A DNA stretch of 64,000 bases, taken from Nitrosomonas ureae. Its GTDB lineage: Bacteria; Pseudomonadota; Gammaproteobacteria; Burkholderiales; Nitrosomonadaceae. Shown in pieces: positions 5,438-64,000 of this stretch; position 1 is the stretch's first letter; each line of letters starts with the position of its first letter. The notes beneath the pieces are model-generated. The model searched no databases, was not told where the DNA came from, and saw only the letters and a program-made list of their open reading frames with translations. Location of the stretch: positions 3,596 through 67,595 of the forward strand of contig CAMCBD010000004.1 in assembly GCA_945872825.1 (NCBI GenBank), given 5' to 3'. A program made the translations under genes and the position numbers.

Positions 5438-6044
5438 ATGTCAAATCGTGGCGGGAAAAGAGAAAATGCGGGAAGGCCGCGCGGCCAGGGCAAATTTGGC
5501 GAACCGACTGTTTCAATACGCATACCGCAAAGTCAGGGAGCTACCATCGAGAACTTTCTTGACGCATACCAGCGTAAAAGAACAAGCTCCGATGATGAAG
5601 AATCAAACGTGGATGAGTTTCTTATTCCCGCCATTAGCGACCAACCAACCTTGTTACCGCTTTTTTCTACTATAAGTGGCGGCAGGTTTCCCCAGTCCGG
5701 CGGATGATCATATCGAAAAAAGCCTCGATGTCAGCGAATTTCTGATCGATCATGCGGCATCGACGTTCTTCGTTACGATTAAGGGAGATTCGATGATTGA
5801 TGTCGGTTTACTGCCAGACGATAAAGTTGTGGTAGATAGATCAAAGACACCAGGCATCGGCGACATTGTGCTTGCAGTGGTTGATCGTGAATTCACCATT
5901 AAAATCTTTGATTACGGGGCAAACAAAATGCCGAGGCTGATGCCAGCCAATTCATCAGGTGCTTACAAACCCATTTACATTCGTCCAGATATGCAGTTTG
6001 AGATCTTTGGTGTAGTGACAGGATCATTTCGTCGTTTCAAGTGA
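5438..6044 (+). pseudogene. umuD: UmuD/LexA-like S24 peptidase, frameshifted near 5670
   Basis: frame 1 ends LPLFST and frame 2 resumes VAAGFPSPADD; catalytic Ser in GDSM and Lys in FTIK. Confidence 0.85.
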
Positions 6045-6105
6045 GTAAGTTGCTGCCGGTTTATGTATGGCAGAAAGAATTTTTAAATCATCACGCCGCA
6101 TTGCT

Positions 6106-6498
6106 ATGCCTGCCCGTTCTATCGCTCTAATTGATGTGAATAACTTCTATGTTAGTTGCGAACGAATAATTAATACTAAGTTGGAAGACAAACCGGTTGT
6201 GGTGCTATCTAGCTTATGCAGATGGCTTGACGCGCTGCCAATGCAGACAAATGATACCGTGCTATTGACCAAGGTTGCCTTATAGGGATTACGAAAAATT
6301 TATCGAAGCGGGTACCGTTATCAAAAAGCGAGTGTAATGTTGTCCGATCTGGTATTCAGGAAAAACCGGCAGGAGGATGATCTATTTGGTCTGGCATCAG
6401 CAAAGAGTGATAGTAGATCGAGCAAATTGAGGGCGCGATTGATCAAGTCAATGCCCGCATGGGGAGGGAGACACGATTAGACTGGCATCCGAACTTAA
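6106..6498 (+). pseudogene. umuC: UmuC (Pol V) relic with a large internal deletion
   Basis: IALIDVNNFYVSCER...KPVVVLS joined to C-terminal GLRKIYRSGYRYQKASVMLSDL and DQVNARMG; stops and frameshifts. Confidence 0.8.
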
Positions 6499-7436: not shown

Positions 7437-8563
7437 ATGGCAAACCATCGCAGCAACAACAATCCGGCCAACACAGCAGTGAAATCAACCGCGATTGAGA
7501 TCCGCAAGGGTCAGACGTCAGGTCGGCTTGATCGCGCTGAATTTAGTATTCGGTTCCGTGCCACATTCATCGATCCCGCGTTTCGAAGCGAAGATGAATC
7601 CATCGCACGACTTGAAGAGGTCGCTTGGCAAGCTTACACCGATGGCCGCAAAGCACCCTTTACACAGAAAGCAGGTCCGGGATATGTTGATCCGGATTAC
7701 GAATTATCAGTCGAATGGCTGTCCACAAAGCAGCGTATAGAAGAAGCACAACAGCGCTGGAGTGAACCTTCCACGCCATCTCGGGTATTGCTGATCTGTG
7801 GCTCGGCACGCAACGATGGAACCTGTCCAGGCGAGATGTCCAAATCCTTCCGGCTTTTGAAAATTGTTCGCGAAACGCTAGAGCAGGCTGATATCCAGGT
7901 TGATGTACTCGATCTGAGTCTGATTACCTCGGAATATGGTCGTAACATCCATCCATGCAAGGGATGTGTGTCGACGGCAATGCCTTTGTGTCACTGGCCG
8001 TGTAGTTGTTATCCCAACCACTCTCTCAATCAAAACAATGATTGGATGGCCGAAATCTATGAACGCTGGACGGCTCTGCCCATGCCGTGATCATCGTAAC
8101 CCCGGTGTATTGGTACCAGAGTCCAAGCCCTTTGAAACTGATGATAGACCGCATGGTCTGCGCCGATGGTGGCAACTCTGATCCCACATCGACATCGGGC
8201 AAGAATGCGGGCAAAGCGAAAGAACTCGAGATGGCCGGATAGGACTACCCGCAGCACCTGGCCGGACGTGCCTACGGCGTGATTGTACACGGCGATGTAG
8301 CCGGTATTGAAGGTTCGCGCCGTTCTTTGTCCGACTGGCTCGACTGGATGGGTTTTATCGACGCCGGAGCTCAGGCACGCCTGGATCGCTACATCGGATA
8401 CTTCGAACCCTATGCGACCAGTCACGATGCTCTGGACAAAGATATTGTAGTACAGGCAGAAACACGCAATGTCGCGCTCGCCGTAGCAAAAGCCGTCGTC
8501 GAGTTACGTGCCGGACGGCTCCATTCGATGCAGGCAAAGCTGCCACGCCCGCGACCAAAGTAG
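7437..8563 (+). pseudogene. flavodoxin / NADPH-dependent FMN reductase family protein with a frameshift near 8075 and a TAG at 8240
   Basis: LLICGSARNDGTCPGEMSKS, IHPCKGCVSTAMPLCHWPCSCYP; continues out of frame as AHAVIIVTPVYWYQ...G*DYPQHLAGR. Confidence 0.85.
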
Positions 8564-10156: not shown

Positions 10157-11923
10157 ATGACACAAGTTGTCGAAATAAAGATTCCCGATATCGGTGATTT
10201 CAAGGATGCTACAGTCATTGAGCTATTCGTCTCCCTCGGCGATACGGTTGAGAAGGAAACTTCGCTGATCACACTGGAAACGGACAAGGCTTCAATGGAA
10301 GTGCCTTCGCCATACGCCGGTGTGGTGCAAGCAATCAAAGTCAAAGTGGGTGATAAAGTGTCAGAAGGTTCGGTTATTCTGACTTTGACAGTGATTGAGC
10401 AACCCACAGCCGCAACGCGCTCAGGAACCACAACCGGAACCAGCGAGAAAGCAGTTGCCGCTCCTATTGTTACCCCAGCCCCTGCACCCATATCACCGCA
10501 ATCCATTCTACCGGGAGACATTCACGCCGACGTGGTGGTGCTTGGCGCTGGCCCCGGAGGATATACCGCCGCTTTCCGCGCTGCCGATCTGGGTAAAAAG
10601 GTGGTTTTAATCGAGCGCTATGCCGCGCTCGGTGGCGTGTGCTTGAATGTTGGCTGCATTCCTTCCAAGGCTTTACTTCATGCGGCCAAAGTAATCACGG
10701 AAGCAGAGGATGTTAAAGCGCAAGGTATTGTTTTTGGCAAACCCCAAATCGATATGGATAAGCTGCGCACCTGGAAAGAATCAGTCATCGGAAAACTAAC
10801 CAAAGGCCTGAAAGCACTGGCGAAACAACGCAAGGTAGAAGTCATCCATGGCAGCGGAAAATTTGCCACGCCAAATCTGATTCAGGTCGAAACTACCCAT
10901 GGGCAAAAAACGGTTTCTTTCGAGCACTGCATCATCGCAGCCGGCTCCAGTGTCACTCGCATCCCCGGTTTTCCTTACGATGATCCGCGCTTGATTGATT
11001 CTACCGGGGCGCTGCAACTAAACGGTGTGCCGAGGCACATGCTGATTATCGGTGGCGGCATCATTGGCCTGGAAATGGCCACGGTCTATTCCGCGCTGGG
11101 AAGCAAAATCAGTGTAGTGGAATGGATGGATCAATTGATTCCGGGTGCTGATCCCGATCTGGTCAAACCGCTGCATCGCCGTATCAAGAAACGCTACGAA
11201 GCGATTTATCTAAAAACCAAGGTGACTCAGATTCATGCCGGTGAATCCGGACTAACCGTGACCTTTGAAGGAGAGAGTGCACCGGAACCGCAAACCTACG
11301 ATCGTATTCTAATGGCCGTCGGACGCCGCCCGAATGGCCGCACTATCGGTGCTGAGGAAATCGGTATCCAAGTCAACGAGCGCGGTTTTATTCCAGTCGA
11401 TCAGCAAATGCGTACCAATCTGCCGCATATTTTTGCGATTGGCGATATCGTGGGTGAACCGATGCTGGCGCATAAAGCCACTTATGAAGGTAAATTAGCT
11501 GCGGAGATTATTGCCGGGCATAAAGCCATCTTTGATGCCCGCACCATTCCTTCCGTCGCTTACACCGATCCTGAAATTGCTTGGATGGGCCTGACCGAGA
11601 AAGAAGCCGTTAAGCAAGGCATTGACTACGAAAAGGCCAGCTTCCCTTGGGCTGCGAGTGGCCGCGCCATATCCATGGCACGCGAGGAAGGATTGACGCA
11701 ACTGCTGTTGGATAAAAATACCCGCCGTATACTGGGTGCTGGCATGGTAGGAATCAATGCCGGTGAGTTGATTGCGGAAACGGTTTTGGCGCTGGAAATG
11801 GGTGCGGATATGCAAGATATCAGTCTGACCATTCACCCGCATCCCACGCTTTCGGAGACCGTACTGTTCGCCGCCGAAATGGCTGAAGGAACTATCACAG
11901 ATCTTTATATACCAAAGAAATAG
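10157..11923 (+). CDS. lpdA: dihydrolipoamide dehydrogenase with N-terminal lipoyl domain
   Basis: ETDKASMEVPSP lipoyl-lysine, GAGPGGY, GGVCLNVGCIPSK, IHPHPTLSE. Confidence 0.95.
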   Translation: MTQVVEIKIPDIGDFKDATVIELFVSLGDTVEKETSLITLETDKASMEVPSPYAGVVQAIKVKVGDKVSEGSVILTLTVIEQPTAATRSGTTTGTSEKAVAAPIVTPAPAPISPQSILPGDIHADVVVLGAGPGGYTAAFRAADLGKKVVLIERYAALGGVCLNVGCIPSKALLHAAKVITEAEDVKAQGIVFGKPQIDMDKLRTWKESVIGKLTKGLKALAKQRKVEVIHGSGKFATPNLIQVETTHGQKTVSFEHCIIAAGSSVTRIPGFPYDDPRLIDSTGALQLNGVPRHMLIIGGGIIGLEMATVYSALGSKISVVEWMDQLIPGADPDLVKPLHRRIKKRYEAIYLKTKVTQIHAGESGLTVTFEGESAPEPQTYDRILMAVGRRPNGRTIGAEEIGIQVNERGFIPVDQQMRTNLPHIFAIGDIVGEPMLAHKATYEGKLAAEIIAGHKAIFDARTIPSVAYTDPEIAWMGLTEKEAVKQGIDYEKASFPWAASGRAISMAREEGLTQLLLDKNTRRILGAGMVGINAGELIAETVLALEMGADMQDISLTIHPHPTLSETVLFAAEMAEGTITDLYIPKK

Positions 11924-57186: not shown

Positions 57187-58311
57187 ATGCCACAACAGAT
57201 CTACTTCGATGAGTCTGGATTCACCGGGAATAATCTTCTTCACCCCCATCAAAAGTATTTTGTCTACGGATCGGTCGCCACGGACGACATTGAGGCGAAA
57301 GAGTTCGTAACCGCGTTAATTAAGAAATATGGAATACAGGGCGGGGAACTCAAGGGAAGTAGGCTTGTTCAATTCAACAAAGGCCGGAAAGCAATTGACG
57401 AGATATTCACCCACTTCGAAGGTAGAATAAAGCTTTCAGTATCTGAAAAGAAATTCGCTCTTTCCTGCAAATTTTTTGAGTACATCTTTGAACCCTGTAT
57501 CTCAGATATCAACTCGCTATTCTATGGCGTTGGATTTCACAAGTTCATAGCCAACATTCTCTATATCGGGTTCTTGACGCGGGGAGCTGGTGCCGAACAA
57601 ATTTTCGGGGAGTTCGAGAATCTCATGCGCAGCCGGAATACCGATGGACTGGATGCAATATTTTCATCATCGACGCATTCGGAGAATTCTCCGATACTGA
57701 TTCAGATTCGAGAGTTTGCACAGCACCGAGCAGAGGACATATGCGCCGAGTTGGCATCACTTAGTGATGGAGGGGCTGGCAAGTGGATACTTGATCTCAC
57801 GAACACTGCTCTTTTCACTCTATTAGCCAACTGGGGCTTGGAGTTTGAGCAGGTGACAGCCATTTGCGATCACTCGAAACCGCTACAGCATGAGCAATCC
57901 ATTTTCAATGTAATGATTGATCGTCCGGATCGACAATTTAGTGTTGCTTTCGGTAAAGAGCACCCAATCACATTCAACCTGTCAGGCCCAATTCAGTTCT
58001 CTGACTCCAAGATTACGCATGGAATTCAACTCGCCGACGCAGTTTCGGCGGCAGCGGTCTATGCGCTCAGCAACCGTGGTAACGAGCATGTGGAGAAATG
58101 GAAGGCGCTCATACCAGCTATAGGTCACTATGGCAGCATCTTTCCAGAACTCGACACGTTGAATCTCAATGATATTTCGGCTCAACGGAATGCTGTGATT
58201 CTCATGGAGCTACATTCAAGGGCGAAAGAAGGACGAAATTTGATCGAGGGTATGCCTGAATTTCTTCGCTTTGTCAGCCAGAAACTTCTGACTCACCCGA
58301 TATATGCATAA
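57187..58311 (+). CDS. DUF3800 family protein in an integron-type cassette
   Basis: IYFDESG and IQLADAV motifs; GTTATGC core at 57153-57159 and attC overlapping the stop codon. Confidence 0.8.
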   Translation: MPQQIYFDESGFTGNNLLHPHQKYFVYGSVATDDIEAKEFVTALIKKYGIQGGELKGSRLVQFNKGRKAIDEIFTHFEGRIKLSVSEKKFALSCKFFEYIFEPCISDINSLFYGVGFHKFIANILYIGFLTRGAGAEQIFGEFENLMRSRNTDGLDAIFSSSTHSENSPILIQIREFAQHRAEDICAELASLSDGGAGKWILDLTNTALFTLLANWGLEFEQVTAICDHSKPLQHEQSIFNVMIDRPDRQFSVAFGKEHPITFNLSGPIQFSDSKITHGIQLADAVSAAAVYALSNRGNEHVEKWKALIPAIGHYGSIFPELDTLNLNDISAQRNAVILMELHSRAKEGRNLIEGMPEFLRFVSQKLLTHPIYA

Positions 58312-59411: not shown

Positions 59412-60398
<987 letters not shown>

Positions 60399-60463
60399 AC
60401 CAGTCTGGGTAATCTATATTCTTGCTGCCGCGATAAAAATACTACCTGAAAAAATTAATTTGA

Positions 60464-60484
60464 CAGGCTCATGTTTTGAGCCTG
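60464..60484. promoter_or_regulatory. perfect inverted repeat, candidate WYL operator
   Basis: CAGGCTCA-TGTTT-TGAGCCTG overlapping a TTGACA hexamer (60460-60465), about 45 bp upstream of the HIRAN start. Confidence 0.55.
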
Positions 60485-60529
60485 CGGTCAGGGATAATGA
60501 TTGAGTGTGAATTGTTTCTACAAGGGAGC

Positions 60530-60928
60530 ATGATGTCACGACGCATATTCCTGAAATCACTTACAACATTGCTCGGCGGATTCTCCCTGCCCGCAATTGC
60601 ATACACCAGGCCGAACCCGGTGAGATGGAAAACCTTACAAATTTCACCCGTAGCCGGATTCCAATATTACCAGGGCGAAACGCTTTGGCCGCAACTGGAT
60701 GCCGGGTAGTTTGTCACGCTCGTGCGCGAACCCGGCAATCCCTACGATGACCGTGCAGTCCGCATAGACTGGCAAGGACACAAACTCGGCTATATTCCCC
60801 GGATGGACAATGCCGCCGTTTCGCAGCTGATTGATCGTGGGGAAAGATTATCGGCTTTGATTGTAGGGTTGAAAGAAAGTAATAATCCTTGGGATCGAAT
60901 CATGGTGGAAGTGCAATGGCGAGCATAA
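60530..60928 (+). pseudogene. HIRAN domain protein with twin-arginine signal, one in-frame TAG at 60707-60709
   Basis: SRRIFLK...AIA leader; VAGFQYY...LVREPGNPYDDRAVRI...KLGYIPR HIRAN motifs continue in one frame across the stop; AAGGGAG RBS. Confidence 0.82.
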
Positions 60929-61032
60929 ACGGGTAGTGTTGTTGGAAAGCCCATGTTTTTATCAATCTGGATATGTTGGCAGCTTTGGCGTTTGTTACGG
61001 ATGTTGTGCGAAATGAAGGAATTGTTGTGAAT

Positions 61033-63288
61033 ATGGAAACGAAAGATAACAAAACTAATATTCTTGCTCACGTTCGTCAGGCTAAAAACGGTAATTGGAA
61101 GGAACATGCGCTGAATGAGCACTTAAATGAAGTAGCCAAGCGCGCAGGAGAAGCTGCAGAAACATTCGATAGCGCAGACTGGGCAAGGATAGCCGGTCTC
61201 TGGCACGATTTAGGCAAGTATAGTGCTGAATTTCAGGAATACATCAAAAAAGCCAGCGGTTACGATGCTGAAGCCCATATTGAGGGGGTTCCAGGAAGAG
61301 TGGATCACTCTACAGCCGGAGCCATTCATGCAATTCGGCAGCTTGGTGTGCATGGACGCATTCTTGCATACCTGATTGCCGGACATCATGCCGGATTGGC
61401 CGACTGGTATTCGGCGGAAACTGGAGGTAAAGCCCTTTCGATTCGATTGGGAGCAGAGCAGAATTACCTACTTGATCGCATACCAACACAAGTCATTCCG
61501 CAGGAAATTCTCACACAAGCGAGGCCTTCCACCAAGCCGCGCGGCGGAGCAGATGGATTGCACCTATGGTTACGCATGTTGTTCTCCTGCCTGGTGGATG
61601 CGGACTTTTTGGATACCGAAGCTTTCATGGATGACGATAAAGCAGCTACCCGTAGTGGTTATCGTGATTTGACCAGTTTGCTGACTGACTTCGATCTATA
61701 CATGGCCAAAAAATCCACATCCGCAGCCTCTACGCCAGTCAACGTCATCCGTTCCGATATTCTGCGGCAGTGCCGTGAAAAATCTGCACTAGATCCCGGA
61801 TTGTTCTCGCTCACCGTGCCTACTGGCGGCGGCAAAACCTTGTCTGGTATGGCTTTCACCTTGCGGCATGCCGTGCAGCACAAAAAACGACGCATCCTAT
61901 ATATCATTCCTTACACCAGTATCATCGAACAAACAGTGGGTATATTCCGCGAGATATTCGGCGACAATGTGGTTGAGCATCACGCTAATCTTGATCCGGA
62001 CAAAGAAGATGCACGTTCCCGTCTGGCAACCGAGAACTGGGATGCGCCCATCATCGTTACCACCAATGTACAGTTTTTTGAATCACTGTTTGCTGCTCGT
62101 ACCAGTCGTTGCCGCAAGCTACATAATATCGTCAATAGTGTAGTGGTGTTGGATGAAGCACAGTTACTGCCGCCGGAGTTTTTACAACCGATTGCCGATG
62201 TAATGAATCAATTAGCAAATCATTATGGAGTGACATTCGTGCTTTCCACCGCTACCCAGCCTGCGCTTGGTTCGTTCCAATCTTTTGGCAACAATCCATT
62301 TCGCAGATTAGATAATGTGCGCGAAATCATGGATGACCCGGATTCTCTGTATCAAAAACTGAAACGTGTGGAAGTCACTGTACCTAACGATTTACAAACA
62401 CCCCGCGATTGGGAAAGTGTCACGGCAGAACTGCTTCAGTATCCATCTGTATTATGTATCGTCAGCCGCCGGGACGACGCACGCGAACTGCATCGCCTAA
62501 TGACATCCAATGAGGAAGGAAAAGATACAGTGCACCTTTCCGCACTGATGTGCGGCGAGCATCGCAGTGAAGTGATTGCTGATATCAAGGCGCGTTTAAA
62601 GCGCAACGAACCCGTACGCGTCATTAGTACCCAACTGGTGGAAGCCGGTGTAGATGTAGATTTTTCAGTGGTATATCGCGCGCTGGCCGGATTGGATTCG
62701 ATTGCTCAGGCAGCGGGACGTTGCAATCGCGAAGGCAAACAAAATAACTTGGGGCGGGTCGTAGTTTTTGTGCCGCCCAAACCTGCACCTCCCGGCTTGT
62801 TGCGGCAAGCAGCACAAATCTCCGTGAGCCTGCTGTCGGAAAATACAAGCAATATATTAGGGCGCGATCTTGCCAAGCAGTTTTTCGAGCATCTCTATAT
62901 ACGCGCACCGTCGCTTGACAAGCACGGTATTCACGAATTACTCACGCAAGACGCTCACGAATGCCAGATTCAATTCCGCACCGTAGCGGACAAATTCAAG
63001 CTGATAGACGACAGCGCCTACCAAACTATATTGGTGCGCTATGGTGACAGCCATGAATTGCTTGATAGATTGGAAATAGAAGGCCCGCATCGCAAGTTGA
63101 TGCGTAAGCTGCAACGTTACTCGGTAAATATACCCAAGCGTATATTTGCTCAACTCGAGAATCAGGGAGATGTCCAGGAATGTAAGAAATTGCCGGGCAT
63201 TTTTGTACAAGTTGGCAACAAGCTTTACGATAAATCGCTGGGTGTAGTGATTGATAGCAACATAGCCCCAGACGAATTGGTTGTGTAA
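61033..63288 (+). CDS. cas3: CRISPR-associated nuclease/helicase Cas3
   Basis: HLNEV...HDLGK HD domain, HHAGL, VPTGGGKT, DEAQ, SAT, QAAGRCNREG. Confidence 0.96.
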   Translation: METKDNKTNILAHVRQAKNGNWKEHALNEHLNEVAKRAGEAAETFDSADWARIAGLWHDLGKYSAEFQEYIKKASGYDAEAHIEGVPGRVDHSTAGAIHAIRQLGVHGRILAYLIAGHHAGLADWYSAETGGKALSIRLGAEQNYLLDRIPTQVIPQEILTQARPSTKPRGGADGLHLWLRMLFSCLVDADFLDTEAFMDDDKAATRSGYRDLTSLLTDFDLYMAKKSTSAASTPVNVIRSDILRQCREKSALDPGLFSLTVPTGGGKTLSGMAFTLRHAVQHKKRRILYIIPYTSIIEQTVGIFREIFGDNVVEHHANLDPDKEDARSRLATENWDAPIIVTTNVQFFESLFAARTSRCRKLHNIVNSVVVLDEAQLLPPEFLQPIADVMNQLANHYGVTFVLSTATQPALGSFQSFGNNPFRRLDNVREIMDDPDSLYQKLKRVEVTVPNDLQTPRDWESVTAELLQYPSVLCIVSRRDDARELHRLMTSNEEGKDTVHLSALMCGEHRSEVIADIKARLKRNEPVRVISTQLVEAGVDVDFSVVYRALAGLDSIAQAAGRCNREGKQNNLGRVVVFVPPKPAPPGLLRQAAQISVSLLSENTSNILGRDLAKQFFEHLYIRAPSLDKHGIHELLTQDAHECQIQFRTVADKFKLIDDSAYQTILVRYGDSHELLDRLEIEGPHRKLMRKLQRYSVNIPKRIFAQLENQGDVQECKKLPGIFVQVGNKLYDKSLGVVIDSNIAPDELVV

Positions 63289-63306: not shown

Positions 63307-63374
63307 CGTCATTCCCGCGAAGGCGGGAATCCAACGCTTTAATTGACTGGGTTCCCGTTTTCACGGGAACGACG
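63307..63374. repeat. dRS3/REP-like palindrome between cas3 and cas5
   Basis: CGTCATTCCCGCGAAGGCGGGAATCC...GGGTTCCCGTTTTCACGGGAACGACG; contains ATTCCC-N8-GGGAAT. Confidence 0.75.
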
Positions 63375-63407: not shown

Positions 63408-64000
63408 ATGAGAACATTCTGCTTGGAAGTAGCCGGCGATTTCGCCTGCTTTACTCGACCTGAAATGAAAGTGGAACGTGTCAGTTATGACGTGATAACA
63501 CCGTCTGCCGCCCGCGCCGTGTTCGAGGCTATCCTGTGGAAGCCTGCCATTCACTGGCAAGTAACCAAAATCGAGGTACTGAAGCCGATTAAATGGATTA
63601 CTTTGCGGCGTAACGAAGTAGGAGTAGTGATTTCGTCGCGTAATGTACAAACTGCCATGAACAGCGGCAGTGGTGATCTGGGTCTTTACATTGAGGATGA
63701 ACGCCAGCAGCGCGCTGGATTGTTTCTGCGCGATGTCGCCTACCGCATTCATGCAGGGTTTGAGATATGCGATGTTACAAAACATAAATCCAACTTTCCG
63801 CACCTTTCCAAATATCGCCTCAACGATGCCGACGAACAGCGTACTGCTGATGAAGCAAATACCCCCGCAAAATTCCTGAACATGTTCGAACGCCGTGCAA
63901 GCCGTGGCCAATGTGTGAATCAGCCCTACCTCGGTTGTCGCGAATTTGCCGCCAACTTCCGCCTAATCAAAGATATTGCCACCGAGCCTGCGCCGATAGC
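63408..64000 (+). CDS. cas5: type I-C Cas5 (Cas5d), partial, runs off window
   Basis: hand translation MRTFCLEVAGDFACFTRPEMKVERVSYDVITPSAARAVFEAILWKP...RRNEV...QPYLGCREF; no stop before the window end. Confidence 0.93.
   Translation, partial: MRTFCLEVAGDFACFTRPEMKVERVSYDVITPSAARAVFEAILWKPAIHWQVTKIEVLKPIKWITLRRNEVGVVISSRNVQTAMNSGSGDLGLYIEDERQQRAGLFLRDVAYRIHAGFEICDVTKHKSNFPHLSKYRLNDADEQRTADEANTPAKFLNMFERRASRGQCVNQPYLGCREFAANFRLIKDIATEPAPI

What the first reader, a model, noticed from the sequence alone, without database searches (positions are those of the whole stretch)
60530..60928. Twin-arginine (Tat) HIRAN protein placed directly upstream of type I-C cas3
Seen: the ORF begins MMSRRIFLKSLTTLLGGFSLPAIA, a match to the S-R-R-x-F-L-K Tat consensus with an AxA cleavage site, followed by a stand-alone HIRAN domain. 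Established: HIRAN domains (HLTF/Rad5) bind free 3' ends of DNA, and Tat exports folded proteins to the periplasm. Inference: a DNA-end binder exported away from the chromosome and encoded at the head of a Cas operon could meet incoming phage or plasmid DNA during envelope transit. It could act as a sensor, a trap or an adaptation helper, making it a possibly undescribed CRISPR accessory module.
Basis: partly seen in the sequence, partly recalled or inferred. Interest (0 to 1): 0.75.

Follow-up and report, generated by a model that had tools for sequence, protein, structure and literature searches.

The report
Exported HIRAN protein heading CRISPR operons
A small DNA-end-binding-type (HIRAN) protein carrying a conserved export signal for the cell's outer compartment is the first gene of type I CRISPR-Cas operons in many Nitrosomonas-like bacteria, an apparently undescribed link, but the copy in this window is broken by a premature stop codon.

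Summary
Window 60530-60928 (+) encodes a 132-codon protein with a textbook twin-arginine signal (MMSRRIFLKSLTTLLGGFSLPAIA) followed by one HIRAN domain. It lies between a WYL regulator gene and type I-C cas3/cas5c. Codon 60 is an in-frame TAG where all aligned homologs have Gln. An independent assembly of the source metagenome also has the TAG, and the WYL gene carries its own in-frame TAG. The module is therefore dead in this genome.

The family is real and conserved. The Arg-Arg pair is as conserved as the core residues of the domain, down to 35% identity. In 45 of 53 evaluable genomes the gene sits directly in front of a cas operon (types I-C, I-F1, I-F2, I-E or I-G/U), usually within tens of bases of the first cas gene. 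It lies downstream of a conserved palindrome plus a -10 box, and usually downstream of a WYL gene. Between close relatives, cas operons of different subtypes are exchanged exactly at the HIRAN stop codon.

The equivalents of the HLTF residues that bind the DNA 3' end (Y72, Y93, D94) are retained. Export, DNA binding and any role in immunity remain untested. No paper in the searched library links HIRAN with Cas3 or with Tat export.

The parts
59412..60398 (+). WYL-family transcription regulator gene (HTH_11, WYL, WCX domains), interrupted by an in-frame TAG at 60042-60044 (codon 211)
   Evidence: Pfam WYL E=1.5e-18, WCX E=1.4e-16 and HTH_11 E=1.8e-7 on the read-through translation. PADLOC 'WYL, CAS associated_signaling' E=9e-37. 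The TAG is confirmed in an independent assembly. The closest homolog has Ser at that position.
60464..60484 (.). Perfect palindrome CAGGCTCA-TGTTT-TGAGCCTG, a candidate operator (presumably for the WYL regulator) placed where a -35 element would be
   Evidence: It is the only perfect match in the window; 0.22 matches with up to 3 mismatches are expected by chance. GCTCA-N5-TGAGC lies 30-130 nt upstream of the HIRAN start in 18/48 loci (exact) and 27/48 loci (up to 1 mismatch). Background 100-nt windows give 4/7466 and 18/7466.
60493..60498 (+). -10-like hexamer GATAAT, 8 nt after the palindrome; conserved as GGATAAT in relatives
   Evidence: Read from the sequence. GATAAT follows the palindrome at the same spacing in most Nitrosomonas and Gallionella loci. 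The generic promoter scan did not call it because no canonical -35 is present.
60522..60528 (+). Shine-Dalgarno-like AAGGGAG just upstream of the ATG
   Evidence: Read from the sequence.
60530..60928 (+). Tat-signal HIRAN protein gene (132 codons), a pseudogene here
   Evidence: Homologs are mostly 131 aa and 64-89% identical.
60530..60607 (+). Predicted twin-arginine signal peptide (residues 1-24 or 1-26; SRRIFLK, h-region SLTTLLGGFSLPAIA, cleavage after AIA or AYT)
   Evidence: Motif and uncharged stretch. MSRRxFL[KQ]S is conserved in homologs. PF10518 TAT_signal hits 20 of 85 members. In the model of the 89%-identical homolog P0001, residues 1-30 have low confidence.
60644..60913 (+). HIRAN domain (residues 39-128)
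   Evidence: Pfam PF08797. The AF2 core has pLDDT above 90. Foldseek top hits are lp_0118 (3k2y, TM 0.83) and the HLTF HIRAN domain (4s0n, 4xzf, 5bnh).
60707..60709 (+). In-frame TAG (codon 60) replacing a Gln found in all 19 aligned homologs (nearly invariant across 85 family members); consistent with CAG to TAG
   Evidence: It is present in an independent assembly.
61033..63288 (+). cas3 (HD nuclease plus SF2 helicase); the ORF is open from 60973, and homolog lengths favour the ATG at 61033
   Evidence: Pfam Cas3_HD, DEAD and Cas3-like_C_2. TIGR01587 and TIGR01596 score above their cut-offs. No terminator-like site lies between the HIRAN gene and cas3.
63409..64000 (+). cas5c (type I-C), running off the window end
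   Evidence: TIGR01876 Cas5c, E=1.3e-49.

Best explanation
The ORF belongs to a conserved family of small, stand-alone HIRAN proteins of about 131 aa that carry a twin-arginine signal peptide, so they are most likely exported folded to the periplasm.

Shown by sequence comparison: the gene is the first gene downstream of a conserved palindrome and -10 box. It usually follows a WYL regulator gene, sometimes with a SEC-C-motif protein gene in between. It is followed, after a short gap or an apparent overlap in my ORF calls, by a type I cas operon (I-C, I-F1, I-F2, I-E or I-G/U). It belongs to a subtype-independent head of the locus (regulator, operator, HIRAN), and whole cas modules are exchanged behind it exactly at the HIRAN stop codon.

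Inferred: the WYL protein controls this promoter, so HIRAN is made together with Cas3 or Cascade. HIRAN is exported by Tat and its signal peptide is cleaved. In the periplasm it uses the retained HLTF-like pocket (Y46, Y72, D73) to hold a nucleic-acid 3' end or a short single strand. The only DNA expected there is incoming or extracellular DNA from transformation, failed or ongoing phage ejection, or lysed neighbours. The protein would thereby add an envelope-level step, either interception or capture, to type I CRISPR defence.

In this window the system is switched off. The HIRAN gene has a Gln60-to-amber mutation and the WYL gene has its own amber codon. cas3 and the visible part of cas5c are still open.
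For: - Domain identity: Pfam HIRAN E=4e-18. The AF2 core has pLDDT above 90, and Foldseek finds the HIRAN structures 3k2y, 4s0n and 4xzf.
- Export signal: SRRxFLK plus an h-region plus AxA in the window. RR is present in all intact copies among 57 genome loci, even where the rest of the signal has diverged. 80 RR-type and 11 KR-type passes occur among 148 representatives below 50% identity. R3 and R4 are as conserved as D72 and G42 across 83 divergent members. PF10518 hits 20 of 85 members. Related clades carry Sec-type signal peptides instead, which argues that an extracytoplasmic location is the conserved trait.
- cas linkage: cas genes lie downstream in 45/57 loci (45/53 evaluable), namely I-C 25, I-F1 6, I-F2 4, I-G/U 4, I-E 2 and partial 4. 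The median gap to the first cas gene is about 42 nt, with some apparent overlaps. The linkage also holds in divergent members, such as P0133 with its stop overlapping the cas3 start, L062, and 14 of 35 Tat-type metagenome loci. Upstream flanks differ in at least ten ways.
- Regulatory head: the palindrome is enriched (27/48 against 18/7466). Homology between loci with different subtypes ends at the HIRAN stop codon.
- Pocket residues: HLTF D94 reads the 3'-OH and Y72/Y93 pinch the terminal bases (PMC5773155). The HMM alignment places window Y46, Y72 and D73 at these positions, and D is invariant in the family.
- Pseudogene status.
Against: No experiment or transcript shows export, DNA binding or co-transcription; RNA contigs of relatives cover the HIRAN gene and cas3 separately and never the junction. 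HLTF R71, which is important for DNA binding, is an invariant Gln in this family. Rad5 HIRAN does not need a free 3'-OH (PMC7804152), so ligand specificity cannot be transferred. Phage and conjugative DNA normally cross the periplasm inside protein conduits (own knowledge), so the supposed substrate may rarely be accessible. Eight loci with room downstream have no cas genes. A sub-clade is followed by an unrelated tail-anchored protein (c90). The Sec-type relatives sit in housekeeping contexts. About a fifth of the copies, including this one, are disrupted, which is compatible with a dispensable function.
Confidence: 0.45

Rival explanations
1. Export-coupled sensor or guard. The functional pool is the unexported precursor. 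In healthy cells Tat, which runs on the proton-motive force, removes HIRAN from the cytoplasm. When infection or membrane damage collapses the proton-motive force, the precursor accumulates inside the cell. There it binds DNA 3' ends, or the WYL regulator, and boosts or licenses the cas operon and Cas3 action.
For: HIRAN is the first gene under the putative WYL operator and is paired with WYL across subtypes. This fits a regulatory role better than an effector role. Tat exports folded proteins and depends on the proton-motive force (established knowledge). The DNA-end pocket is conserved, yet chromosomal and invading DNA ends are cytoplasmic.
Against: Related clades replace the Tat signal with ordinary Sec-type signal peptides, which suggests that the periplasm is the place of action. 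No cytoplasmic partner or transducer is conserved next to the gene. There is no precedent known to me.
Confidence: 0.12
2. A periplasmic protein with a function unrelated to CRISPR. It would bind another ligand or serve a general stress role, and it would sit in front of cas operons only because it shares a WYL-controlled promoter next to a recombination hotspot where defence modules land.
For: cas modules of different subtypes are swapped exactly behind the gene, as expected for a fixed resident gene beside a hotspot. In Nitrosomonas the head often sits next to the same core genes (clusters c8, c9 and c15). Some Tat-type copies have no cas genes nearby. Sec-type relatives lie beside a PQQ dehydrogenase-like gene with TsaB, or beside YraN and DiaA-like genes. 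A plasmid copy follows a manganese catalase gene. Frequent pseudogenisation is seen.
Against: The WYL-HIRAN-cas arrangement recurs in at least ten different chromosomal flanks and in several orders (L051). Spacing to the first cas gene is tight or overlapping. The non-cas neighbours of Tat-type copies are mostly other defence or mobile-element genes, including a 1247-aa MTase, AbiE, toxin-antitoxin pairs and a recombinase.
Confidence: 0.22
3. The N-terminus is not a working export signal. The protein would be a cytoplasmic DNA-end binder that helps Cas3 processing or primed adaptation.
For: HIRAN domains characterised so far act on cytoplasmic or nuclear DNA (PMC5773155, PMC7804152). The Pfam TAT_signal model hits only 20 of 85 members, and NCBIfam gave no hit.
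Against: The RR pair is as conserved as the core of the domain, while the rest of the signal drifts yet keeps an uncharged h-region and small residues at -1 and -3. KR variants and Sec-type replacements exist. Phage-encoded HIRAN proteins match only the domain and lack the signal. The N-terminal 30 residues are not part of the fold.
Confidence: 0.08

Closest known systems
HIRAN domain of human HLTF (PDB 4S0N, 4XZF, 5BNH) and of yeast Rad5
   Same: Same fold (Foldseek probability 1.0, TM about 0.6) and same Pfam family. The equivalents of Y72, Y93 and D94, which hold the DNA 3' end in HLTF, are kept.
   Different: It is stand-alone rather than fused to a SWI/SNF helicase and RING domain. It is bacterial and carries an export signal. 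HLTF R71 is an invariant Gln here. Identity is only about 20%. Rad5 shows that 3'-OH specificity is not universal in the family.
lp_0118 of Lactobacillus plantarum (PDB 3K2Y), an uncharacterised stand-alone bacterial HIRAN protein
   Same: It is the best structural and sequence match among solved structures (hmmsearch E=1e-10; TM 0.83), and it is also a single-domain protein.
   Different: The deposited chain of 109 residues aligns from its residue 10 to family position 37, so it has no counterpart of the signal peptide. No cas context is known to me, and its function is unknown.
WYL-domain regulators of defence loci (CRISPR-associated WYL proteins, WYL-Cas3 fusions; BrxR, CapW, PafBC and DriD from own knowledge)
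   Same: The upstream gene has the HTH-WYL-WCX architecture and matches PADLOC's Cas-associated WYL models. WYL linkage to type I systems, and WYL fusion to Cas3, are described (PMC4012209). A palindromic operator lies at the promoter of the controlled operon.
   Different: None of the described WYL-controlled defence operons is reported to begin with an exported HIRAN protein. That paper does not mention HIRAN.
Predicted CRISPR-ancillary genes with membrane connections (CorA, membrane CARF proteins; bioRxiv 10.1101/270033)
   Same: It is a non-core gene stably encoded in cas loci, and it points to an envelope connection of CRISPR-Cas.
   Different: Those candidates are mostly integral membrane proteins of type III loci. 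This one is a soluble, Tat-signal protein of type I loci, and HIRAN is not mentioned in that text.
PADLOC candidate defence system PDC-M03, gene B
   Same: The HIRAN part (residues 41-129) matches the C-terminal half of five PDC-M03B models, best E=3.6e-15. A HIRAN domain is therefore already listed in a candidate anti-phage system.
   Different: The PDC-M03B models are about 250 positions long and the match starts near position 135, so the architecture differs. No signal-peptide region is matched.
ComEA-type periplasmic DNA receptors of natural transformation (own knowledge; a functional analogy only)
   Same: It is a small soluble periplasmic protein that would bind incoming DNA.
   Different: The fold is unrelated (helix-hairpin-helix). 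ComEA uses Sec export, binds duplex DNA rather than ends, and belongs to competence regulons rather than cas operons. No homology was tested or claimed.

Membership tests
HIRAN domain (Pfam PF08797) | Significant match to the family profile | tested here: met
   E=4.3e-18, 65 bits against a cut-off of 24.7, residues 39-128. All 85 members of the alignment match.
HIRAN domain (Pfam PF08797) | HIRAN fold (beta-barrel flanked by helices) | tested here: met
   The AF2 model of the 89%-identical homolog has core pLDDT above 90. The Foldseek top 17 hits are all HIRAN structures.
HIRAN domain (Pfam PF08797) | HLTF-type 3'-end pocket (Tyr72, Tyr93, Asp94) | tested here: met
   The alignment places window Y46, Y72 and D73 at these positions. 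The Asp is invariant across 83 divergent members. The roles of the residues are taken from PMC5773155. HLTF R71 is not kept; it is Gln here.
HIRAN domain (Pfam PF08797) | Binding of ssDNA or DNA 3' ends | not testable with these tools
   This needs EMSA or fluorescence polarisation with 3'-OH and 3'-blocked oligonucleotides.
Twin-arginine (Tat) export substrates | S/T-R-R-x-F-L-K motif near the N-terminus | tested here: met
   S3-R4-R5-I-F-L-K9. It is conserved in close homologs and as [RK]R-x-[FL] in most divergent ones.
Twin-arginine (Tat) export substrates | Uncharged h-region of at least 13 residues after the motif, then a small-x-small cleavage site | tested here: met
   A 17-residue uncharged stretch SLTTLLGGFSLPAIAYT, with AIA or AYT at its end. 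The family consensus is A-x-A followed by K-P.
Twin-arginine (Tat) export substrates | Recognition by a curated Tat-signal model | tested here: inconclusive
   PF10518 hits 20 of 85 members, best E=9.6e-4, but not P0001; the window protein showed no TAT_signal match at E up to 0.01. NCBIfam gave no hit. These are short models and HMMER's filters lose weak matches. SignalP and TatP are not available here.
Twin-arginine (Tat) export substrates | Tat-dependent localisation outside the cytoplasm | not testable with these tools
   This needs fractionation or reporter fusions in wild type against a tatC mutant.
CRISPR-associated ancillary gene | Recurrent co-location with cas genes in unrelated genomic settings and across lineages | tested here: met
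   45 of 53 evaluable genome loci, five subtypes, at least ten upstream contexts, and Nitrosomonadales plus other Beta- and Gammaproteobacteria. 14 of 35 Tat-type metagenome loci also show it.
CRISPR-associated ancillary gene | Same strand and operon-like spacing to cas genes | tested here: met
   The median gap is about 42 nt, with some apparent overlaps; the stop overlaps the cas3 start in L058 and L059. No terminator-like site is found in the window. Transcripts were not resolved.
CRISPR-associated ancillary gene | Rarely found away from cas loci (high 'CRISPRicity') | tested here: inconclusive
   Within the Tat-type clade about 85% of genome loci have cas genes. Eight loci do not, a c90-linked sub-clade exists, and the Sec-type relatives are never next to cas genes. 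No genome-wide background was computed.
CRISPR-associated ancillary gene | Effect on interference, adaptation or regulation | not testable with these tools
   This needs genetics in a host with an intact copy.
Type I-C CRISPR-Cas locus | cas3 followed by cas5c (then cas8c and cas7) | tested here: met
   Cas3 domains and Cas5c TIGR01876. cas8c and cas7 lie beyond the window end. The 93%-identical locus L017 continues with a Cas5c match and a 731-aa ORF that I did not identify.
WYL-family transcription regulator | N-terminal HTH, central WYL domain and C-terminal WCX domain | tested here: met
   the gene is broken here by a TAG at codon 211.
WYL-family transcription regulator | Binds an operator at the controlled promoter | tested here: inconclusive
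   A conserved palindrome sits at the -35 position of the HIRAN promoter. Its assignment to the WYL protein is an inference.

The most novel reading that the evidence does not exclude
Type I CRISPR-Cas systems of Nitrosomonas-like bacteria have a periplasmic arm. A Tat-exported HIRAN protein, co-expressed with Cas3 or Cascade under a WYL switch, would seize the 3' ends of DNA entering the envelope from transformation, phage ejection or eDNA. It would then either block entry of that DNA or mark and channel it for interference or spacer capture. Alternatively, its export status would report envelope integrity to the cytoplasmic system. Either way, it would be the first CRISPR-linked component acting outside the cytoplasm.
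Probability: 0.2. Interest if true: 0.9.

Novelty: new variant of a known kind. Interest (0 to 1): 0.68.

Why it matters
All described CRISPR-Cas components act in the cytoplasm or on its membrane face. A conserved, exported nucleic-acid-binding protein that heads cas operons of five type I subtypes would point to an unrecognised envelope-level step in adaptive immunity, or to an unrecognised way of regulating it. It would also give the first functional handle on prokaryotic HIRAN proteins, which a 2024 survey still calls uncharacterised (PMC11090510). The regulator-operator-HIRAN head, with cas modules exchanged exactly behind it, is also a clean natural example of modular swapping of immune systems under one control unit. 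Finally, the family is easy to test: the protein is small and soluble, and there are clear point mutants (RR to KK, D73A).

Tried and rejected
- TAG recoding or read-through as the reason for the in-frame stops was rejected. TAG ends ordinary genes here: lpdA stops at 11921-11923 and is followed by unrelated sequence, and 9 of 45 long ORFs end in TAG. Homologs have Gln at the site. The window holds other decayed genes with frameshifts and deletions.
- Assembly error was rejected. An independent assembly of the source run is identical over 59626-61100.
It was repeated with A4.
- Metatranscriptome contigs were examined for co-transcription. Only fragments from 85-95% relatives were found, and none spans the HIRAN-cas3 junction, so the result is inconclusive.
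- Literature searches for HIRAN with WYL, CRISPR, Cas3 and twin-arginine found no relevant paper. The CRISPR-linked-gene surveys and the WYL/CARF paper do not mention HIRAN. The supplementary tables of the bioRxiv survey are not held.
- Plasmid and phage collections were searched. One plasmid copy lies in a non-cas context. Phage HIRAN proteins match only the domain and not the signal, so there is no sign that this is a phage or anti-defence gene.
- The generic sigma-70 scan did not find the promoter. The conserved palindrome plus GATAAT was found only by comparing loci.
- The ORF clusters c90, c45 and c71 downstream of some copies gave no family match or are probably spurious.
Full report
**1. 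What is in the window**

Window 60530-60928 (+) reads MMSRRIFLKSLTTLLGGFSLPAIAYTRPNPVRWKTLQISPVAGFQYYQGETLWPQLDAG*FVTLVREPGNPYDDRAVRIDWQGHKLGYIPRMDNAAVSQLIDRGERLSALIVGLKESNNPWDRIMVEVQWRA*. The asterisk at codon 60 is a TAG at 60707-60709. The read-through protein has one Pfam domain, HIRAN (PF08797), at residues 39-128 with E=4.3e-18.

Upstream, 59412-60398 encodes an HTH_11-WYL-WCX regulator that is itself interrupted by a TAG at 60042-60044. Downstream lie cas3 (61033-63288; HD plus helicase) and the start of cas5c at 63409 (TIGR01876, E=1e-49).

The organism is a Nitrosomonas. Flanking genes are 90-97% identical to Nitrosomonas MAGs, and the source is a lake-water metagenome.

**2. The stop codons are real**

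Logan contigs of the source run, at about 12x depth, match 59626-61100 with no difference. All 19 aligned homologs have Gln at codon 60, and the position is nearly invariant across 85 family members, so the change is consistent with CAG to TAG.

TAG is a normal stop in this genome. It ends lpdA and 9 of 45 long ORFs. The window also holds other decayed genes. The local HIRAN and WYL genes are pseudogenes. cas3 is open, and so is the part of cas5c that lies in the window.

**3. The family and its export signal**

A search of 5.8 billion proteins returned 266 homologs. Most are 131 aa long and come from Nitrosomonas, Gallionella and other Betaproteobacteria. They all begin MSRRxFL[KQ]S, followed by an uncharged stretch and an A-x-A-K-P type end.

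A profile search of 1.84 billion representatives found 91 clusters at E up to 1e-30. Of the 148 new representatives among the 150 best listed, 80 carry RR and 11 carry KR, each followed by a hydrophobic residue and at least 13 uncharged residues. Across 83 such members at 35-53% identity, only four columns are invariant: the second Arg, G42, D72 and G86. Pfam's TAT_signal model hits 20 of 85 members.

Several related clades have ordinary Sec-type signal peptides instead. Together these points argue that an extracytoplasmic location is the selected trait.

The AF2 model of the 89%-identical P0001 has a confident core (pLDDT above 90) and a low-confidence N-terminal 30 residues. Foldseek returns lp_0118 (3K2Y) and the HLTF HIRAN domain structures as its best hits.

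**3a. The DNA-end pocket**

In HLTF, D94 reads the 3'-OH and Y72/Y93 pinch the last two bases (PMC5773155). The HMM alignment puts window Y46, Y72 and D73 at those positions. HLTF R71 is an invariant Gln here. Rad5's HIRAN domain binds ssDNA without needing a free 3'-OH (PMC7804152). End-specificity is therefore plausible but not assured.

**4. Genomic context: species-representative genomes**

A scan of 185,579 species-representative genomes gave 57 loci. I labelled the neighbouring genes by clustering ORFs and by Pfam. Cas genes lie directly downstream in 45 loci, which is 45 of the 53 that have room to judge:

| Downstream cas genes | Loci |
|---|---|
| I-C | 25 |
| I-F1 (Cas1, Cas2-3, Csy1-3) | 6 |
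| I-F2 (Cas5fv) | 4 |
| I-G/U (GSU0053 family) | 4 |
| I-E (Cse1) | 2 |
| Only cas3 or cas1 visible | 4 |

- The next ORF on the same strand is a cas gene in 39 loci. The median gap is about 42 nt, with some apparent overlaps.
- A WYL gene lies upstream in about 40 loci.
- In 17 loci a SEC-C-motif protein gene is inserted between the WYL and HIRAN genes.
- The flanks upstream of the module differ in at least ten ways, so the linkage is not a by-product of one chromosomal site.

**4a. Genomic context: divergent members**

Divergent members confirm the linkage. In P0133 (49% identity) the stop overlaps the start of a type I-C cas3. L062 has the order WYL, small membrane protein, HIRAN, cas1 of type I-F. 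L051, from a gammaproteobacterium at 42% identity, has the order WYL, HIRAN, cas3, with a Cse1-like ORF following (my reading of the sequence; not checked against a profile).

In 80 more divergent metagenome loci, 35 are Tat-type. Of these:
- 14 show cas genes.
- 6 are followed by an unknown tail-anchored protein (cluster c90).
- The rest are too short to judge or have other neighbours.

The other 45 loci are Sec-type or unclear, and none is next to cas genes. They sit beside a PQQ dehydrogenase-like gene with TsaB, or beside YraN and DiaA-like genes.

Tat-type copies without cas genes lie among a 1247-aa methyltransferase, AbiE, toxin-antitoxin pairs, ParB-like proteins and a recombinase.

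**5. A regulatory head with swappable cas modules**

Upstream of the HIRAN start nearly all loci share CAGGCTCA-N5-TGAGCCTG, followed about 8 nt later by GGATAAT. In the window these elements lie at 60464-60484 and 60493-60498. The palindrome is the only perfect copy in the window. The core GCTCA-N5-TGAGC occurs 30-130 nt upstream of HIRAN in 27 of 48 loci with up to one mismatch. Background 100-nt windows give 18 of 7466.

This looks like an operator overlapping the -35 position of the promoter that drives HIRAN and the cas genes. Assigning it to the WYL protein is an inference.

Between close relatives, nucleotide homology runs through the head and stops at the HIRAN stop codon, after which a different cas subtype follows:
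- L006 (I-C) against L007 (I-F1): 98% identity up to L006:2824 and L007:8396.
- L005 (I-F1) against L037 (I-E).
- L009 (I-F2) against L031 (I-C).

The window shows the same mosaic. Its HIRAN gene is 88% identical to that of L001, but the two Cas3 proteins are only 36% identical. HIRAN therefore belongs with the regulator and promoter, not with a particular effector complex.

**6. Mechanism**

Shown: the domain identity, the conserved signal peptide features, the operon-like placement, the conserved operator-like palindrome, and independence from cas subtype.

Inferred: control by the WYL protein, Tat export with cleavage, binding of a nucleic-acid 3' end or short single strand in the periplasm, and a contribution to defence against incoming DNA.

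I rate the full chain at about 0.45. The identity and linkage part alone is above 0.85, and the periplasmic DNA interception step is about 0.3.

The rivals are:
- An export-coupled sensor in which the unexported precursor is the active species (0.12).
- A periplasmic protein that is only a bystander of a WYL-controlled promoter next to a recombination hotspot (0.22).
- A non-functional signal, giving a cytoplasmic helper of Cas3 (0.08).

RNA contigs from relatives show that both HIRAN-like and cas3-like sequences occur in metatranscriptomes, but none spans the junction.

**7. Comparison with what is known, and novelty**

The closest known items are:
- HLTF and Rad5 HIRAN domains (fold and pocket).
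- lp_0118 (stand-alone bacterial HIRAN of unknown function).
- WYL regulators of CRISPR and other defence loci, including WYL-Cas3 fusions (PMC4012209; PADLOC models).
- The predicted membrane-linked CRISPR ancillary genes of type III systems (bioRxiv 10.1101/270033).
- PADLOC candidate PDC-M03B, whose C-terminal half matches the HIRAN part.

No paper in the searchable library contains HIRAN together with Cas3 or with twin-arginine. The surveys of CRISPR-linked genes do not mention HIRAN. Prokaryotic HIRAN domains were still called uncharacterised in 2024 (PMC11090510). Public records name these proteins only 'HIRAN domain-containing protein'.

I file this as a new variant of a known kind, namely a CRISPR-linked accessory gene. 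Its unprecedented feature is a predicted periplasmic location.

**8. Verdict**

The family-level finding deserves follow-up. The copy in this window is a pseudogene, so experiments should use an intact relative.

Noticed in passing
window 60042-60044 (within 59412-60398): The WYL regulator gene next to the HIRAN gene also has an in-frame TAG (codon 211). The closest homolog has Ser there. The two adjacent genes of the regulatory head are thus independently knocked out, while cas3 stays open.
   Followed up: yes
window 7437-8563: An FMN_red-type flavoprotein gene looks decayed. The N-terminal part is in one frame (7437-8090). The rest is in another frame (8063-8563), and the Pfam match runs across an in-frame TAG at 8240-8242.
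   Followed up: partly
window 5676-6480: By eye, a umuD-like (LexA/S24-type peptidase) ORF at 5676-6044 is followed by a remnant that looks like a Y-family polymerase (umuC/dinB) N-terminus, then a large internal gap and an in-frame TAG at 6283-6285. With the items above this makes at least four decayed genes in 64 kb. No profile search was run on these two ORFs.
   Followed up: partly
L006:2824 / L007:8396; L005:8387 / L037:8386; L009:8389 / L031:8386: Near-identical Nitrosomonas loci carry different cas subtypes (I-C against I-F1, I-F1 against I-E, I-F2 against I-C). Nucleotide homology ends at or within a few bases of the stop codon of the HIRAN gene, so this is the exchange junction for whole cas operons.
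   Followed up: yes
L001 6295-7368, L024 6415-7872, L050 6907-7878 and 14 other loci: Two unrelated architectures carrying a SEC-C zinc motif sit between the WYL and HIRAN genes and upstream of the palindrome. One is about 485 aa with an N-terminal SEC-C motif and a weak Xre_MbcA_ParS_C match. The other is about 323 aa with HEAT repeats and a C-terminal SEC-C motif. The window lacks this gene. Its closest cas3 relative, L017, has it, but there tblastn found no WYL match.
   Followed up: partly
L039 8397-9086, L041 8366-9082, L078, L087, L094, L109, L132, L134: In Rhodocyclaceae-like loci the Tat-HIRAN gene is followed, with an overlap or a gap of a few bases, by a protein of about 230 aa with no Pfam match and a C-terminal hydrophobic tail (cluster c90) instead of cas genes. 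A 1247-aa methyltransferase often lies nearby. RtcB plus a DUF7281 protein lie upstream in L039, L080, L091 and L107. L039 has a second exact copy of the palindrome core in front of rtcB.
   Followed up: partly
L012 (N. nitrosa Nm90), L016 (N. oligotropha Nm45), L021, L031, L017, L026 (Nm132), L046, L037, L050: The HIRAN gene is disrupted in roughly a fifth of near-full-length copies. There are nonsense codons at different positions (TGA in L012; TAG in L016, L021 and L031) and frameshifts. Three isolate genomes are among them. cas3 looked split in only about three loci. The numbers are small and MAG errors are not excluded.
   Followed up: partly
window 63312-63329 and 63351-63370: Two GC-rich hairpins (TTCCCGC-GAAG-GCGGGAA and GTTCCCGT-TTTCA-CGGGAAC) lie between cas3 and cas5c. 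Similar 'GTCATTCCCGCGAA.GCGGGAATCC' elements occur in other loci (for example upstream of HIRAN in L033), so this is probably a REP-like repeat of these genomes.
   Followed up: no
window 57187-58311: A DUF3800 protein gene of 374 aa sits two genes upstream of the WYL gene. The related loci L001 and L017 lack it (no tblastn match), so it is an insertion specific to this genome. It has no PADLOC match.
   Followed up: no
L063, L064, L100, L129 and about 40 other metagenome loci: A sister group of HIRAN proteins carries Sec-type signal peptides (for example M..LLILVWVWAQPLHAQ). They lie in housekeeping contexts, either before a PQQ-type sorbosone dehydrogenase-like periplasmic enzyme and TsaB, or between YraN and a DiaA/GmhA-like SIS protein (neighbour identities read by eye, not profile-checked). 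Exported HIRAN proteins are thus a wider group, uncharacterised as far as I know.
   Followed up: partly
L001 8384-8629, L018, L072, L111: A DUF433 (antitoxin-like) gene is inserted between the HIRAN gene and cas3 in several loci. In L015 it is followed by an ORF that looks PIN-like (not profile-checked).
   Followed up: no
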